From positions 29,636,001-29,700,000 of the forward strand of contig NC_042998.1 in NCBI RefSeq assembly GCF_006345805.1: DNA of 64,000 nucleotides, in the 5' to 3' direction. The notes under the pieces were generated by a model that did no database searches, was not told where the DNA came from, and was given only the letters and a program-made list of their open reading frames with translations. The position numbers were made by a program, and so were the translations under genes. This DNA is from Octopus sinensis (Eukaryota). Each line of letters starts with the position of its first letter. The first letter of the stretch is position 1. Below, piece after piece: positions 15,698 to 64,000 of this stretch.

Positions 15698-17193
15698 TAG
15701 TGAATTGAAGAAATGGAGTTGAACGAAGATTGAACAGAAATCGTTTTATTGCATTCTACACGTGTTTCGAAAGGCACAATTTACCAAATTCCGATTGAAT
15801 AAGGAGACCATATTGTGTCTTTCTCTTCAGGAAGAAATAGGAAATCCGTTGGAAAAAACAAAAACAGAACAGAGGCGGAGCAAAACAAATCGAACGAGGC
15901 TCCTAAGAGCCCATGGCCAAACTGTTTATGAATGTATGTTGAAAACGGGTGGTGGGTGCGTTGAAGATTTTAACGGGTCAGGCAGCGGTCATTCCAGTGG
16001 GTGAGAGCACGGGGTGCTTAGATGTTCTTTGTGACCGAGACTAAAGTTCTGACTATTTAAAGAATATTAGGTGTATTATATGGGGCGAGGCAAAATCTAC
16101 TTAGAAACATGTGTGTGTGTACGTAAACAGCCCTACACAATGGTCACTGCTGTAAAATCAGTAATGGTCACTGCTGTAAAGTCAGTCGGGTGGCAGAAAA
16201 ATATTTTATGTGTGCGTGTGTTCGTCTAATCATGCCTTGTCAAAGAAACCCCCCGTCGTCAAAAACAAACCACCATTCGTCTCCCAGGAGTAATTCCCCT
16301 TGCAATGGTTAATCATATTTCTCTTAAAAGCTATTTCAGAATTTATTTCCAAGGGCTATTTTCATATAAGTAGTGTAACCGGGTGCAGGTATTATTTATA
16401 AGCGTTATTTATAAGCAAGATAAGTATAACGCCGCCAATGGGGGCATCGAAAAGCCGACTGTAAAAGTCCGTTTACCATCCGGTCTCTGGCGAACAATAT
16501 ATGGAAGAGTTCGGAGACACACTTCCATCTGCCCCTGTCAAATGGGAGGGCCACCGACAAAATTGACCATTCCAGCTTGAGTTCGTATTCTTCAATCGCC
16601 ATATTAGCTTGCTAAGTCCCGTGGTCTGGCATTTATTCACGTCTCGAAAAGTTGCGTAATGGTTGGAGATTCGTGAGGCCAATCTTGACGATGAGGCCCC
16701 GACATAAGCGTAGACATCTGAGTCCGTGTAAACCTTACATTGGTAGACGGCGTTTCTGATCTTGGAGTTCACCGACGTGAACCTTATTCTATTAGGATTA
16801 GTTTCTGAAATTAGAACTGCGTTACTGTTACTATATTTGTTGCGAGAACTGCAGCCGCTTACTACTTTATTTTCCACTACGTCACTATTAACTAACGGAA
16901 TAACCCCTGAATCTACACTATCACTCAGAGTGCTGTCATTGCTAGTGCCCGTGGTGCTGCTATTGCCGGAAACGATGCTGGAGTTGCTATTGGGACTCTC
17001 TACCCTAACGGGCCGAGCTGCCCTCACCTCACTACTGCCATCGTTACCGTCAATGACATCACCCTTATTTATAACTATACCCCTAGTATCTAATCCCTGG
17101 TTGGAGCTGAGATTATGAGTCACTGTACTGGCTCTCATATCATTATTACTACTATTATTATTCCTACTGAGCGTTAAACCGGGAGCGGAAGAA
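15698..17193 (-). repeat. Inverted arm of the PLE (copy of 18615-20118)
   Basis: Mirror ORFs in the track (16473..17138 vs 18439..19334; 15762..16004 vs 19803..20045). Only a few substitutions and indels are visible between the arms. Confidence 0.97.
15754..15833 (-). ncRNA. Same minimal hammerhead ribozyme in the inverted arm
   Basis: Reverse complement of 19974-20053. Confidence 0.85.
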
Positions 17194-18600
17194 CTTGGAA
17201 GTTAAGGAGATAATGTTTAAACACGGAATTCAAATGAGAACGCAGCCGCTTAGTCCTAAGCAACCTAGATTTGTAGTGAAGGACCATAAACCGAACTTCC
17301 ACACCAACCCAGCGCTAAGACTCATATGCCCTGCTAGCTCTGATATCGGGATAATCAGTAAGTACATTTTAGATAAATATATCCCTAGTTTAGTAAACAA
17401 GCTGAAGCTCAGCCTCTGGGCCAACTCCTCGCAGGTAGTGAAGTGGTTCTCTTCCATCCCCAATAAGAACGGTACTAGGTTCATTCAGTTTGATATCGCC
17501 AGCTTCTACCCCTCGATTAACCCTAGTGTACTAAATAAGGCCCTTTGGCATGCCCACAACAAGGCTGGCCTCACCAGAGAAGAAATAGATATAATTTTAG
17601 TTGCCAGGAAATCGTTTATTAAGTTTGATAATAAGTTGTGGATCCGTAAAGATACTCCCAATGAATTTGATGTGCCTATGGGTAGTTCGGATAGTGCGCA
17701 GATAGCCGATTTGGTCGGAATATATATTCTCTACGAATTGTCCGACCAGTTCCCGGAGATCGCGGGCGGCCTGTATCGTGACGATTGTCTGTTTTACCTG
17801 CAAAACACCACGAACAGAATAGTGCAGAAAACTAAGAGCAGGTTAGCTAGGTTTTTTAATAGAATGGGCATGAATATAGTTTTTGATAATGAACTCACCA
17901 AGGCTAATTTCCTAGACGTTACACTTAACCTTAATAGCGACTCATACTGCCCTTACCATAAGCCTTCCACTAATTTGAAGTATGTCAGTGTCTTCTCCAA
18001 TCATGCCAAAACCGTAACAGACAATTTGGTTAAAAACATCTCTCTAAGATTGTCTGGCTTGTCCGCTAGTGCCGATATTTTTATGCAGAAAGCGGAATTT
18101 TATAACGCCGCACTATCCAAGGCCGGTTATAGGCAGAAGGTAATTTGTATTGATCCGGCCCTTCCGATGCCATCATTCGGTCATCAGGATAGGGCCGTCT
18201 ATAATAACATTAATAATTTAAGTAGTGACGGGAGCGCGGCTGGTGCTGGGGCAGTCGCTCCCGCATTTAATTTAGCGAACAAGGATAATTATCGGTCCGG
18301 GGGATCTCACCCGTTATTCATCCGAGAATCACCCACCCGAATGCGAGAGCTAGCGTCCCGACCCATCACATAAATAGGAATAATCATATATGGTTTGTAA
18401 TTCCCTTTGGTAAGCAGATTAGAACTAACCTCCCCCTCATGTTTCGACAGGCCATCGCCAATAACTTCCCCAGAAATTCCAAATATTACTCCACGGTTAA
18501 CTCGCATAAAGTTAGGATAGCTTTCTCCAACACTAAAAACCTCGCCCAGATAATCGCCTCCCATAATAATAGACTGCTTACTAAGACCCTATCACCTTTT
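17194..18600 (+). pseudogene. PLE reverse transcriptase (5'-truncated, one frameshift between about 18271 and 18370)
   Basis: Motifs KDHKPNF..P..RLICP, FIQFDIASFYPSI, VPMGSSDSAQIADLVG, GLYRDD, NFLDVTL, SNH. The thumb continues in another frame as HIWFVIPFG...KVRIAFSNTKNLAQIIASHN. Confidence 0.92.
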
Positions 18601-18929
18601 TCCGGAGGCTCAGCTTCTTCCGCTCCCGGTTTAACGCTCAGTAGGAATAATAATAGTAGTAATAATGATATGAGAGCCAGTACAGTGACTCATAATCTCA
18701 GCTCCAACCAGGGATTAGATACTAGGGGTATAGTTATAAATAAGGGTGATGTCATTGACGGTAACGATGGCAGTAGTGAGGTGAGGGCAGCTCGGCCCGT
18801 TAGGGTAGAGAGTCCCAATAGCAACTCCAGCATCGTTTCCGGCAATAGCAGCACCACGGGCACTAGCAATGACAGCACTCTGAGTGATAGTGTAGATTCA
18901 GGGGTATTCCGTTAGTTAATAGTGACGTA

Positions 18930-19402
18930 GTGGAAAATAAAGTAGTAAGCGGCTGCAGTTCTCGCAACAAATATAGTAACAGTAACGCAGTTCTAATTTC
19001 AGAAACTAATCCTAATAGAATAAGGTTCACGTCGGTGAACTCCAAGATCAGAAACGCCGTCTACCAATGTAAGGTTTACACGGACTCAGATGTCTACGCT
19101 TATGTCGGGGCCTCATCGTCAAGATTGGCCTCACGAATCTCCAACCATTACGCAACTTTTCGAGACGTGAATAAATGCCAGACCACGGGACTTAGCAAGC
19201 TAATATGGCGATTGAAGAATACGAACTCAAGCTGGAATGGTCAATTTTGTCGGTGGCCCTCCCATTTGACAGGGGCAGAAGGAAGTGTGTCTCCGAACTC
19301 TTCCATATATTGTTCGCCAGAGACCGGATGGTAAACGGACTTTTACAGTCGGCTTTTCGATGCCCCCATTGGCGGCGTTATACTTATCTTGCTTATAAAT
19401 AA
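18930..19402 (+). pseudogene. PLE GIY-YIG endonuclease domain (frameshifted near 19220)
   Basis: AVYQCKV...YAYVGASS..LASRISNH...T.LSKLIWRLK, then in the next frame LEWSIL...C.SE...RCPH. A mirror copy lies at 16405-16880 on the minus strand. Confidence 0.85.
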
Positions 19403-19973
19403 CGCTTATAAATAATACCTGCACCCGGTTACACTACTTATATGAAAATAGCCCTTGGAAATAAATTCTGAAATAGCTTTTAAGAGAAATATGATTAACC
19501 ATTGCAAGGAGAATTACTCCTGGGAGACGAATGGTGGTTTGTTTTTGACGACGGGGGGTTTCTTTGACAAGGCATGATTAGACGAACACACGCACACATA
19601 AAATATTTTTCTGCCACCCGACTGATTTTACAGCAGTGACCATTACTGATTTTACAGCAGTGACCATTGTGTAGGGCTGTTTACGTACACACACACATGT
19701 TTCTAAGTAGATTTTGCCTCGCCCCATATAATACACCTAATATTCTTTAAATAGTCAGAACTTTAGTCTCGGTCACAAAGAACATCTAAGCACCCCGTGC
19801 TCTCACCCACTGGAATGACCGCTGCCTGACCCGTTAAAATCTTCAACGCACCCACCACCCGTTTTCAACATACATTCATAAACAGTTTGGCCATGGGCTC
19901 TTAGGAGCCTCGTTCGATTTGTTTTGCTCCGCCTCTGTTCTGTTTTTGTTTTTTCCAACGGATTTCCTATTTC

Positions 19974-20053
19974 TTCCTGAAGAGAAAGACACAATATGGT
20001 CTCCTTATTCAATCGGAATTTGGTAAATTGTGCCTTTCGAAACACGTGTAGAA
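19974..20053 (+). ncRNA. Minimal type I hammerhead ribozyme of the PLE
   Basis: ttc-CTGAAGA-gaaagacacaat...attgtgcctttc-GAAA-CACGTG-TA-gaa. 3-bp stem I, ~12-bp stem II, palindromic stem III. Predicted cut after 20050. Confidence 0.85.
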
Positions 20054-20272
20054 TGCAATAAAACGATTTCTGTTCAATCTTCGTTCAACTCCATTTCTTC
20101 AATTTCTTCAATTCACTAATAATATTAAAATTCAATTATCCGCACCAACGCACGGTTGCAACACCATAGGGTTGTACCTCCAACCGTTCTGTCTTCTGCT
20201 GTGATTTTTGCTACCAAGGTATCGGTTAAACTTTTGATTAATCTGCAACAAGTTTATTCATCTTTCTATTTC

Positions 20273-31920: not shown

Positions 31921-32349
31921 CAGTCATTTCACTGTGGCCATGTTAGCATACCAAAGTCATTTCACTGTGGCCATGCTGCAGCGCCGCAGTAATTTCACTT
32001 TGGCTAGCTGGTGCGCTGCAGTCATTTCACTGTGGCCCTGCTGGTGCGCTGCAGTCATTTCACTGTGGCCCTGCTGGGGTATCAAATTCATTTCAGTGTG
32101 GCCGTGCTGGATCGCCGCAGTAATTTCACTGTGGCCACGCTGGGATAGTGCAGTCATTTCATTGTGGCAATACTAGAGCACCACAGTAATTTCATTGTGC
32201 CCATGCTGGTGTGCTGCATTCATTTCACCGTGGCCATGCTGGAGAGACTCAGTCATTTGACTGTGGCCATGCTGGGGCACTGCAGTCATGTCAGTGTAGC
32301 CATGCTGGGGTTCCGCATTTATTTCACTGTGGCAATGCTGGAGCACCAC
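31921..32349. repeat. 33-bp minisatellite, about 13 diverged units
   Basis: Unit cagtcatttcactgtggccatgctgg.gc.ccg, which runs directly into a SINE body. Confidence 0.9.
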
Positions 32350-32556
32350 GTTGAAGGATTTTTGTGGAATGACTTATTTTTTCGTTTAAGTCCTGGCACT
32401 TATTCTATGGGTCGCCTTTGCCGAACTGCAAATTCTTGGGGATAATCAGAGACACAAAGACATATTCAGATGTATACACATATATGTGACCTCGTGTGTA
32501 CCGTTGGCGATTTATTTTCCTTTGTCTTCCCTTCTCTGGATCTTTCCTTCTCCTAT

Positions 32557-39869: not shown

Positions 39870-40024
39870 CTTGCGTAAATGATCCTTCCTTCCGAATCGA
39901 CGTTGGCACACTCGGCAGAGATAAGGACGATAGCCGGTATGAATGCGAAGATGTCGTGTCAATTCTTCGTTCCTGGCGAATGTCTTCTCACAACCTTTTC
40001 GACAACAGACGAACGGACGTTCAC
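39870..40024 (-). CDS. hkb: Huckebein-like C2H2 gene, coding exon 2 (finger 2 and most of finger 3)
   Basis: Acceptor TTTCATTTTCGTTTAG|GT completes the Gly codon from exon 1. Encodes ERPFVCCRKGCEKTFARNEELTRHLRIHTGYRPYLCRVCQRRFGRKDHLRK. Donor AAG|GTAATA (phase 0). Length 155 nt. Confidence 0.92.
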
Positions 40025-41327: not shown

Positions 41328-41868
41328 TATATATATATGTTTGTGGGAATGCATGTGTGTGTGTGTGTGTGTGTGTGTGGTGTGCATAGAGAGTGCACCG
41401 CTGGCATTTTTGTGTCTTCCTTTCATAGCTACGCCACAACCTGCAACCAATCCCAGAGTCGGATCTCCGGTTCAAATTGGAATTGGTTCTCATACATCTG
41501 CAGTATCCTGCCAACACCTAATACGTTCATTGCTGTTGACCTTAATATGAACTCTATGTTATTGTACCTAGCCATTTCTAGCGCCCTACGTGTTGATGTG
41601 CCTAGATTGTTATTAAATCTTCCCAACTAATTTATATATATATACATATATATATAGCAATAATAAATCTCTGAACGAGATGTAAACAGTAACCGCTCGA
41701 CAACATAAAGTATACTAGCCATATCAATATGACTAACCACTAAGGGTGGGTGTTACTGTAGCTTTTAGCCCCAGGAGATCATCGTCTCCAGCTAGCTTTA
41801 GGCACACTTTCTGTGCCCTTATAATATTTGCAAAGGGAGGTCATCCTTTCTCGTAAACCTAAGTGATA

Positions 41869-41914
41869 CGCACGGACTGCAGTTTCGAGGTAATTTGCCT
41901 CTTGTCAACGTGCG
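41869..41914 (-). ncRNA. Minimal hammerhead ribozyme, U3-A8 core variant
   Basis: Minus strand reads cgcacg-TTGACAA-gagg caaatta cctc-GAAA-CTGCAG-TC-cgtgcg. 6-bp stem I, 4-bp stem II, palindromic stem III, GUC site. Confidence 0.75.
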
Positions 41915-42903
41915 GTAATCACCGGTTTACGACGAAAGGAAGACCTGTTTGCAAATACTTATAGGTATTTAATTACCTCGAAACTGCAGTCCGTACGTAT
42001 CACTTAGGTTTACGAGAGGGGATGACCTCCCTTTGCAAATATCATAAGGGCACAGATACACGTGCGCACACACACACACATACAAATATAGACGAAGCCG
42101 TAGTCGTGTGGTAAGAAGCATATTTCACAACCACATGGTTCCGGGTTCAGTCCTACTGCGTGACAACTGGGGCAAGCGTTACGGTTAAGATTACGGTTTT
42201 GGGCTAAAGGTAAGGTTTAGGATTAGGGTTAGAGTTAGGCTTAGGGCAAGGATTAGAACGCATGTTAAAGTGTAAATGGCCCGGTAGAGCCATATTTATA
42301 CGTTTATATGTATAGGTGGTGGAGAAGTTGGGTTTATGGTTTTTCAAGGTGAAGTGGGGGTTGGGTGTGTATGGTTGAGTTCTAGAATCTGTTTACATTT
42401 ATGTGCCACTGTGTTTATTATGCATGTATATATATGCATGGCATCTTGGGCAACTGTCTTCTGCTATAGCTCCGGGCCGACCAATGCCTGGTGAGTGGAT
42501 TTGGTAGACGGAAACTGAAAGAAGCCTGTCGTATATATGTATGTGTGTGTTTGTGTGTCTGTGTTTGTCCCCCTAGCATTGCTTGACAACCGATGCTGGT
42601 GTGTTTACGTCCCCGTCACTTAGCGATTCGGCAAAAGAGACCGATGGAATAAGTACTGGGCCTACAAATAATAAGACCTGGGGTCGATTTGCTCGACTAA
42701 AGACGGTGCTCCAGCATGGCTGCAGTCAAATGACTGAAACAGGTAAAAGAGAGAAAAAAAGAGAGAAAGAGATATATATTCATATATATATTTATGTAGA
42801 TGTGTGAATACATATATATGCATGTGTGTGTATATTAATTTAATTTAATTGATTAAGTGTAATTTAATTGTTCCTTTTGAATTGATAAAAGGTGTTTTTT
42901 CAA

Positions 42904-62769: not shown

Positions 62770-63607
62770 CTGTATGGATACGTAAGTGAATCTTAAGTTG
62801 TGCCGGACTTGATTTGAATTTATTACAGTACGGACATTTATTTATCCTTCTCTGATACTGTCTGCCATTTTCCTGCAGATCTGTTTTCATTTCGTGTGTA
62901 GATCCGCCCATTTGTTTTACATACAAATTCATCATTTGAAGGAAGCCTCCTGAGCATTTCAGCATATCAATGGGAAAATTAAGGTTCGATACTGATTTTA
63001 TTTGAGATTGACCGTCTACAGATTGCTTTGAAAGAATATTGATTTGTCGAGGTTCGCTCGTTTCCCTTTTATCACGTGGATTGCAAGAATAAGCATTTTG
63101 AGAGACATCCACGCATTTTGACAATGCATCTATTTCTGAAAAGGGTTTTGTAAATGTTGGAATTGGATATTTTATATGGGGCAATGGCGAAAAACATTTT
63201 AAAGCCTCGTTGTTTGTGATGTAATTATTGAAATCTGTGTGGCGCGATGATATATCATAAAAGTTATTACTTCTGTCTAGTGGTAATTCATTGTGTAGTA
63301 TTTGGTCAGTGCCTTCTTGAAACTTATGTATGTTTGTTCTGTAAAAGGGTACATCCTCTTGGCCATATCTCTTGTATTCATATCGTTTAGGTGTTGTGTA
63401 AGAAACATCAGATATATCACTCGGTAACTGAACATGACATATAGTTTGTCCATTGAAAAAATTTCCATCTCGTGAAGTATCGCCATACTGGTGAATTTGT
63501 GGGGGTGAAGGAATTCCTGAACTGGTAGAGGAAAGATCTTGTTCTGAGTTATGTTGAAGAATAACAGGGCAAAACCTCCGTGGAAGAATGGTAGCATGTT
63601 CCATCAT
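62770..63607 (-). CDS. hkb: Huckebein-like C2H2 zinc-finger transcription factor, coding exon 1 (N-terminal region plus finger 1)
   Basis: 280-aa non-repetitive ORF starting ATG ATG, with an in-frame TAA shortly upstream. It ends in CPYCNKFKSSPAQLKIHLRIHT-G. Donor G|GTTAGT at 62770/62769 (phase 1) splits the TGERPF linker. The symbol comes from recalled similarity to Drosophila Huckebein fingers, not from a search. Confidence 0.85.
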
Positions 63608-64000
63608 AGTTATAATATCCGGATTATTTTTGTAACATATAGTAGTTTATTTTTACGTGGAATTTAGAAACAGTTATTTAAAAATCACTTGAGCAATAAA
63701 GTTTTTTTTTGTTAAATGACTCTAGCTGTATATTCACCAAATCTATTTTCCAAGTGTTTATTAAACACTAGATGTGAAATTTGATCCTGAAATGAAACAC
63801 GATTGCTTTTTTTTATTTATAGCGTGCACTTTGTAATATTGATATGAAATCATCGAGCATTTTATCTCGGGTCATAAATCATTTAAAAACAAATTAATGG
63901 CTATATTTCTTATCTCATAATTCAGGACTTTTCGAGATATACATGTTTTTGTCGACTATTTAAACAATCATTTAAACGTTGGTTCCTCTTTCAATAGTAA

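What the first reader, a model, noticed from the sequence alone, without database searches (positions are those of the whole stretch)
41810..42053. U3-A8 variant hammerhead on the host pre-mRNA strand, masked by its own inverted copy
Seen: on the minus strand (sense for intron 1 of the zinc-finger gene) 41914-41869 folds as a minimal type I HHR with core UUGACAA instead of CUGANGA. Known: positions 3 and 8 form a Watson-Crick pair in the active fold, so C3U with G8A is a compensatory double change rather than simple decay. Palindromic stem III (CUGCAG) is the hallmark of PLE HHRs that cleave as dimers. Seen: 41810-41895 is repeated inverted at about 41968-42053 (~86 bp, about 4 mismatches), covering the 3' half of the ribozyme. 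Inference: in the transcript the inverted arm is made first and would pair with and silence the ribozyme. This would be a cis-antisense lock that A-to-I editing might also act on.
Basis: partly seen in the sequence, partly recalled or inferred. Interest (0 to 1): 0.75.

Follow-up and report, generated by a model that had tools for sequence, protein, structure and literature searches.

The report
Retrozyme copy with inverted insertion scar
This is one of hundreds of copies of a small non-coding jumping element that carries a hammerhead-ribozyme motif of an already described variant type; the inverted piece predicted to block it is most likely the usual by-product of how such elements insert, not a purpose-built lock.

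Summary
A type I hammerhead with a U3-A8 core lies at 41914-41869 (-), sense in a 22.7-kb intron of a zinc-finger gene. An 86-bp inverted arm (41971-42056, 4 mismatches) is predicted to abolish its fold. It is a 5'-truncated copy of a 353-nt non-coding retrozyme-type repeat (684 core-pattern hits genome-wide). Positions 3 and 8 co-vary: 40 C3-G8, 39 U3-A8, 0 discordant in 79 sampled insertions. That is probably one event in a source lineage. U3-A8 cores are already in print, including in Penelope-like elements. The 'lock' looks like an insertion scar: 28 of 79 insertions have an inverted 5' arm, and 24 of these pair one long fixed end with one short fixed end, as expected from two reverse-transcription starts. 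Most arms miss the ribozyme (11 of 79 sites cover it), and this arm has drifted at the neutral rate. Cleavage and editing were not testable. The scan noted the same kind of element, and the same two-end rule, on other genomes. New member of a known kind.

The parts
41656..41962 (-). Main copy of the 353-nt retrozyme-type unit, unit positions 48-353 (5'-truncated, complete long 3' end)
   Evidence: blastn against a real tandem unit from L014, 94%
41869..41914 (-). Type I hammerhead motif: stems I (6 bp), II (4 bp), III (2 bp plus UGCA loop); predicted cut between 41875 and 41874
41902..41908 (-). Variant core UUGACAA: U3 (41908), C7, A8 (41903)
   Evidence: shared by the subfamily
41915..41962 (-). 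The element's own 5' strand, predicted to extend stem I into a long rod with about 41820-41868
   Evidence: folds (a real unit folded as a circle: z = -7.4 against 100 shuffles)
41963..41970 (.). 8-nt junction filler resembling unit 113-120; a small fold-back hairpin with the arm's inner end, likely a template-switch trace
   Evidence: sequence; co-transcriptional folds
41971..42056 (+). Inverted arm, unit 113-199; covers the 3' half of the hammerhead; ends short of the family's usual outer end (about unit 305)
41630..41655 (.). (TA)n run directly after the element's 3' end, the family's usual insertion target
39870..40024 (-). Downstream C2H2 zinc-finger exon of the host gene, 1,850 nt past the cut site
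   Evidence: Pfam zf-C2H2; WT1/EGR/KLF-like fingers among the PDB hits; frame check
62770..63646 (-). Upstream coding exon region of the host gene (ends in the first finger; start not defined)
   Evidence: ORF; in-frame donor at 62770

Best explanation
This is a 5'-truncated copy of a 353-nt non-coding repeat with a U3-A8 hammerhead motif, likely a non-autonomous Penelope-type retrozyme, and its inverted arm is most likely a trimmed by-product of insertion that is predicted to block the ribozyme incidentally. Shown: the unit, tandem arrays, (TA)n targets, two fixed 3' ends, linked changes at 3/8 and in stem II, and frequent inverted arms. Inferred: tandem source copies are transcribed, their palindromic stems III pair between neighbours and the dimeric hammerheads release unit-length, self-paired, probably circular RNA. 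A Penelope-type RT/GIY-YIG protein would copy that RNA starting at two internal sites (about unit 305 and 353), one on each side of a (TA)n target, giving a main copy plus a 5'-truncated inverted copy. The U3-A8 swap, with C7 and a restored G10.1-C11.1 pair, likely arose once in a source lineage derived from C3-G8 relatives and was kept because that lineage needed a working core. The window's arm likely reached about unit 305 at first and lost its outer 105 bp or so. In the host pre-mRNA the arm would pair first and prevent folding, but nothing shows the host selected for this.
For: Unit of 353-357 nt in head-to-tail arrays, longest stop-free frame 82 codons. At least 3101 candidate places; 684 core-pattern hits. 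3/8: 45 C3-G8, 1 G3-G8 and 0 U3-G8 of 46 non-A8 hits; 0 hits with C, G or A at 3 and A8, out of 141. Hand count of the first 100 of 684 listed: 54 C-G, 43 U-A, 3 U-G, 0 C-A. 40 C-G and 39 U-A of 79 insertions. Stem II pair 10.2-11.2 switches G-C to A-U between lineages, and 10.1-11.1 goes from C.A to G-C with U3-A8. Two-armed insertions: 28 of 79; 24 of 28 pair a long with a short end, like the two RT start sites that flank the 'tail' of the anole PLE (PMC11167929). Arms covering at least 15 nt of the ribozyme: 10 of 50 plus 1 of 29 sites. Arm against main copy: 4 of 86 mismatches, 4.8 expected from drift. An unrelated RT/GIY-YIG element in the same window also has a 1.5-kb inverted arm. Inter-copy stem III pairing 0.72-0.90 in a real tandem, about 0 within a copy.
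Against: No autonomous partner was found: 0 of 30 loci of the window's Penelope-like family share sequence with the unit, and their two arms end at the same point where both were seen. The window's arm is atypical: it is one of 3 of 28 arms with an odd outer end, and what remains is the ribozyme-covering part. Hammerheads with a 2-bp stem III and tetraloop can cleave as monomers in vitro (axolotl Amex2, 22% in 1 h; PMC7229834), and retrozymes are reported as depleted from introns in Xenopus (bioRxiv 10.64898/2026.07.22.740005), so a lock could matter. The direction C3-G8 to U3-A8 rests on a midpoint root; the U3-A8 clade (98/90) dissolves when the core columns are removed. Loci were chosen by similarity or pattern, not at random. 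Cleavage and circles are not shown.
Confidence: 0.8

Rival explanations
1. Survivor filter: the arm arose as an insertion by-product, but this sense-strand intronic insertion persisted because the arm silences a ribozyme that would otherwise cut the pre-mRNA of a developmental transcription factor.
For: Predicted complete loss of stems I-III with the arm. The retained part of a probably trimmed arm is the covering part. Monomer cleavage is documented for similar mollusc and axolotl motifs (PMC7229834). Intron depletion of retrozymes in Xenopus (bioRxiv 10.64898/2026.07.22.740005).
Against: Neutral-rate divergence of the arm with no compensatory change. A lone copy lacks a dimer partner and its own stem III is predicted weak. 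Introns cut by a hammerhead were still spliced in mammalian cells (as summarised in PMC2995048). About 43% of Xenopus copies do lie in introns (same preprint).
Confidence: 0.12
2. Regulated switch: the arm is a functional cis-antisense lock that A-to-I editing opens or tunes to control the host zinc-finger gene.
For: An 86-bp duplex with two A.C mismatches at 41848 and 41847 is the kind of substrate ADARs prefer (recalled, no call); heavy editing in coleoid cephalopods is recalled.
Against: A13, A14 and A15.1 of the core lie inside the duplex, so editing there would likely damage the ribozyme instead of freeing it. A gap of about 47 kcal/mol is unlikely to be closed by a few edits. The junction is unique to this locus among 40 scored candidates and the insertion is young (about 3% from its subfamily).
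Confidence: 0.03
3. The U3-A8 subfamily is catalytically dead or nearly so and spreads without cleavage; the core is inherited baggage.
For: Hammerhead mutants did not affect insertion by the anole PLE in vitro, and no RNA-seq ends were seen at its cut site (PMC11167929). Minimal PLE hammerheads cleave poorly in vitro (PMC4209133).
Against: Three coupled double changes within 21 nt all keep or restore pairing (3-8, 10.2-11.2, 10.1-11.1), while the majority base at the other core positions is the same in all three lineages. Natural U3-A8 cores are described as compensatory, and engineered ones as active in vitro (PMC3088659).
Confidence: 0.05

Closest known systems
Metazoan non-LTR retrozymes (Cervera and de la Pena 2020, PMC7229834; Li et al. 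2026, bioRxiv 10.64898/2026.07.22.740005)
   Same: About 350-nt non-coding tandem units, one type I hammerhead per unit, highly self-paired predicted circle, monomers and multimers; two ribozyme variants in one genome, one with a mismatch at the base of helix II (as in axolotl Amex2).
   Different: U3-A8 core in the younger subfamily; two-armed insertions with a long and a short end; circular RNA and cleavage not shown here. No cephalopod retrozyme paper was found.
U3-A8 hammerheads (Schistosoma mansoni Cercyon PLEs, PMC4209133; natural variants in PMC3088659)
   Same: Same compensatory swap of the 3-8 pair; about 1,300 hits in Schistosoma; hammerhead pairs on opposite strands 100-700 bp apart were noted in the same paper.
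   Different: Here helix II is 4 bp and a small helix III is present. Close C3-G8 sister lineages, an intermediate (L053) and a core-swapped chimera (L057) exist in the same genome.
Penelope-like element insertion structure (PMC8557442; PMC11167929)
   Same: 5'-truncation, partial tandems, inverted 5'-truncated copy, (TA)n target, optional tail of about 45 nt at one end only.
   Different: No ORF; the autonomous partner was not identified.

Membership tests
Type I hammerhead ribozyme | Core boxes in order with a Watson-Crick 3-8 pair and an NUH cut site | tested here: met
   UUGACAA, GAAA, GUC; U3-A8; covariation with C3-G8
Type I hammerhead ribozyme | Three helices, open helix I, supported by covariation | tested here: met
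   Helices I and II predicted at 0.8-1.0 without the arm; stem II G-C/A-U switch; helix III is weak within a copy and predicted between tandem copies
Type I hammerhead ribozyme | Match to an Rfam hammerhead model | tested here: inconclusive
   No hit for the window stretch at E up to 10, but also none at gathering score for 2 of 2 canonical C3-G8 sister loci, so the test does not discriminate
Type I hammerhead ribozyme | Self-cleavage at the predicted site | not testable with these tools
   Only assembled contigs were available
Non-LTR retrozyme | Short non-coding tandem unit with one type I hammerhead per unit | tested here: met
   353-357-nt tandem units in L007, L014, L052; longest stop-free frame 82 codons
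Non-LTR retrozyme | Highly self-paired unit RNA | tested here: met
   Circular fold -121.8 kcal/mol, z = -7.4 against 100 shuffles
Non-LTR retrozyme | Accumulation as circular RNA | not testable with these tools
   No run on record as RNA and no raw reads
Non-autonomous Penelope-like element | Inverted 5'-truncated copy, partial tandems, tail at one end, microsatellite target | tested here: met
   28 of 79 two-armed, 24 of 28 long plus short; (TA)n after most terminal long ends
Non-autonomous Penelope-like element | Shared terminal sequence with an autonomous RT/GIY-YIG element | tested here: inconclusive
   One PLE family tested: no blastn hit in 30 of 30 loci; weak 3'-end likeness noticed after the fact, 21 of 2000 shuffles as high. 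Other PLE families not examined
Selected cis-antisense lock | Arm kept more perfect than drift allows, or placed on the ribozyme as a rule | tested here: not met
   4 mismatches against 4.8 expected (low power); 11 of 79 sites cover the ribozyme
Selected cis-antisense lock | Enrichment among sense-strand intronic insertions; conservation at the orthologous site | not testable with these tools
   No gene annotation or related genome held; contigs did not span the junction or flanks

The most novel reading that the evidence does not exclude
Penelope-type insertion makes its own off-switch. Because any transcript crossing a two-armed insertion meets the antisense arm first, long arms pre-silence the hammerhead, and selection keeps sense-strand intronic retrozymes mainly when they are arm-locked. 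This copy in a zinc-finger gene would be such a survivor, trimmed to the locking part and open to A-to-I editing.
Probability: 0.12. Interest if true: 0.65.

Novelty: new member of a known kind. Interest (0 to 1): 0.3.

Why it matters
The locus itself is probably inert debris. The family is more useful. It gives a natural series of hammerhead cores in one genome (C3-G8 with a C.A base of helix II; U3-A8 with C.A; U3-A8 with G-C; a core-swapped chimera). That makes it possible to test which neighbours make the 3-8 swap tolerable and whether cleavage is under selection in Penelope-type elements, an open question in PMC8557442 and PMC11167929. The long-plus-short end rule is a genomic footprint consistent with two RT starts, one for each arm. 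If the survivor filter were true, it would explain how self-cutting elements are tolerated in introns.

Tried and rejected
Rfam gave no hammerhead hit in the window or in two canonical sister loci, only microsatellite and hairpin microRNA matches below threshold. No RNA holder listed: the 20 RNA-labelled rows of 24 are guesses and all runs are contigs. Family contigs of both core types occur in five guessed-RNA runs and cross the cut site, but contigs cannot show ends, editing or which copy is read, and none covered 41964-41975 in the four runs; this is no evidence either way. Orthology of the insertion could not be judged because flanks were skipped as repeats. The window's Penelope-like element as mobiliser was not supported. 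An alignment fold of unit 45-195 failed on the gapped projection (-4 kcal/mol) and was set aside. A suspected abundant ribozyme-less derivative with a palindromic junction gave only one place. The lower departure rate in the core of old copies (4 of 360 against 163 of 4804, P about 0.007) was not used as main evidence because sub-lineage differences, CpG content and search bias confound it. Decay of a single copy was rejected because the core is shared by the subfamily. The protein atlas gave no result. Lunse 2017 and Przybilski and Hammann 2007 were not held; only their titles were seen.

Full report
Observation. The minus strand at 41914-41869 forms a type I hammerhead: 6-bp stem I, core UUGACAA, 4-bp stem II, GAAA, 2-bp stem III with a UGCA loop and a GUC cut site at 41875/41874. 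It was the only hit of a generic core scan of the window. C2H2 exons ending at 62770 and starting at 40024 and 28925 splice in frame at GT/AG sites, placing the motif sense in a 22,745-nt intron, 1,850 nt before the acceptor (Pfam zf-C2H2). The fingers recall huckebein (recalled, no call names it). The animal is likely an octopus, inferred from the 2.7-Gb microsatellite-rich genome; no sequence call names it.

What it belongs to. A genome search with 41650-41930 gave 3101 candidates, of which 40 were scored, at 93-96% identity besides the window itself. Tandem loci define a unit of 353-357 nt with no stop-free frame over 82 codons and terminal ends mostly followed by (TA)n. The window holds unit 48-353, an 8-nt filler and an inverted unit 113-199. 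A real unit folded as a circle gives -121.8 kcal/mol, z = -7.4 against 100 shuffles. In a real tandem the palindromic stems III pair between copies at 0.72-0.90 and about 0 within a copy. [quoted passage not shown]

The 3-8 pair. A pattern free at 3, 7 and 8 matched 141 places, control 0. Of these, 46 lack A8: 45 C3-G8, 1 G3-G8, 0 U3-G8. None has C, G or A at 3 with A8. So about 95 are U3-A8 (A3 with a non-A8 was not counted; none among the 100 listed). A looser pattern matched 684 places, control 2; my hand count of the first 100 listed is 54 C-G, 43 U-A, 3 U-G, 0 C-A. In 79 insertions (90 loci less 11 duplicates) there are 40 C-G and 39 U-A. Between lineages, pair 10.2-11.2 switches G-C to A-U, N7 goes U, A, C, and the C.A mismatch at 10.1-11.1 becomes G-C in 36 of 38 U3-A8 copies; the majority base at the other core positions does not change. 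This is linkage from probably one event and not many independent ones. C3-G8 copies are more diverged (3.5-4.0% against 2.8% from their group majority) and surround the U3-A8 clade in a midpoint-rooted tree (98/90), but that clade dissolves without the core columns, so the direction is likely and not shown. L053 has U3-A8 with C.A. L057 has the U3-A8 type at 11 of 11 informative sites in unit 94-121 and the old type at 40 of 40 scored sites elsewhere, so it is a core-swapped chimera. U3-A8 is known: natural covariation in PMC3088659, and about 1,300 hits found through Cercyon PLEs of Schistosoma in PMC4209133.

The arm. Folding predicts that the arm removes stems I-III: the hammerhead fold costs 47.5 kcal/mol with it and 3.6 without, and the duplex forms as the 3' half emerges. 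But inverted copies lie beside 22 of 50 and 6 of 29 insertions, and cover at least 15 nt of the ribozyme in only 10 and 1. With stricter clustering 28 of 79 are two-armed; 24 pair a long end (346-353) with a short end (299-309), 1 is long-long and 3, including the window, have an odd end. The search that picked L001-L030 favoured long main ends, but short main ends pair with long arms in the pattern-picked loci too. This fits the inverted 5'-truncated copy and one-sided tail described for PLEs (PMC8557442) and the two RT start sites that flank the tail in vitro (PMC11167929). An earlier scan note pointed me to this two-end rule, and I tested it here. The window's arm likely lost unit 200-305 later (inference). 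Its 4 mismatches match the 4.8 expected if both halves drifted at 2.8% (weak power), and none is compensatory. In any two-armed insertion the antisense arm is read first from either side, so the order is not a design feature. An unrelated RT/GIY-YIG element at 15703-20104 has the same architecture.

Would a lock be needed? Uncertain. A lone copy has no dimer partner, but similar 2-bp-stem-III motifs cleave modestly as monomers (PMC7229834). Hammerhead-cut introns were still spliced in mammalian cells while a faster ribozyme blocked splicing (summarised in PMC2995048). Retrozymes are depleted from, yet common in, Xenopus introns (bioRxiv 10.64898/2026.07.22.740005). A survivor filter therefore stays open at about 0.12. 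It needs an annotation that I did not have.

Not shown. Cleavage, circles, editing, expression of this copy and the autonomous partner.

Papers seen. PMC4209133: parts 1-2 of 4 of the text. PMC7229834: passages and part 3 of 6. bioRxiv 10.64898/2026.07.22.740005: part 1 of 5 and passages. PMC3088659, PMC8557442, PMC11167929, PMC7761336, PMC2995048, PMC3884650, PMC7151607, PMC13282606: passages only. No supplements were read. Searches listed no paper on this family or on cephalopod retrozymes; the library lacks most subscription journals.

Verdict. A real, compensated U3-A8 hammerhead in a retrozyme-type repeat, with an insertion-scar arm that is predicted to silence it by accident. New member of a known kind; interest 0.3.

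Noticed in passing
L057 (G000:C3:81270083-81270423): Chimeric copy: old C3-G8-lineage body with only unit 94-121 (the hammerhead core and stem II) of the U3-A8 type; likely gene conversion or a template switch that moved the core as a cassette.
   Followed up: partly
L053 (G000:C2:176278621-176278660): U3-A8 core with the C.A base of helix II typical of C3-G8 lineages; an intermediate or a recombinant.
   Followed up: partly
e.g. G000:C1:35530098-35530130: A second U3-A8 subfamily with a different stem II (a G-C to A-U switch at the loop-closing pair), seen many times among the 100 listed matches.
   Followed up: no
window 15703-20104: Frameshifted Penelope-like element (RT frame 17171-18373, GIY-YIG-like frame 18891-19334) with a 1.5-kb inverted arm at 100% complementarity and a TA flank. 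9149 candidates in the genome, some with open frames of about 910 codons. No canonical hammerhead found in it, no Pfam hit.
   Followed up: partly
window about 20065-20095 and 41671-41689: The 3' ends of the Penelope-like element and of the retrozyme unit share a weak likeness over about 20 nt (21 of 2000 shuffles as high; noticed after the fact).
   Followed up: partly
window 41660-41820: Contig depth in three probable DNA runs is tens of times higher over the 3' half of the unit than over the hammerhead, suggesting many 5'-truncated or related ribozyme-less copies.
   Followed up: partly
window 42088-42179 and 42440-42760: Abundant SINE-like repeat (about ten copies in the window) beside the arm, itself interrupted by about 250 bp that include degenerate TTAGGG-like repeats at 42200-42260.
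   Followed up: no
window 63646-28800 (-): Four-finger C2H2 gene over three coding exons, with a GGTTAG donor context at 62770; fingers recall huckebein (recalled).
   Followed up: partly
window 31974-32374: Tandem array of 33-nt units, about nine copies.
   Followed up: no
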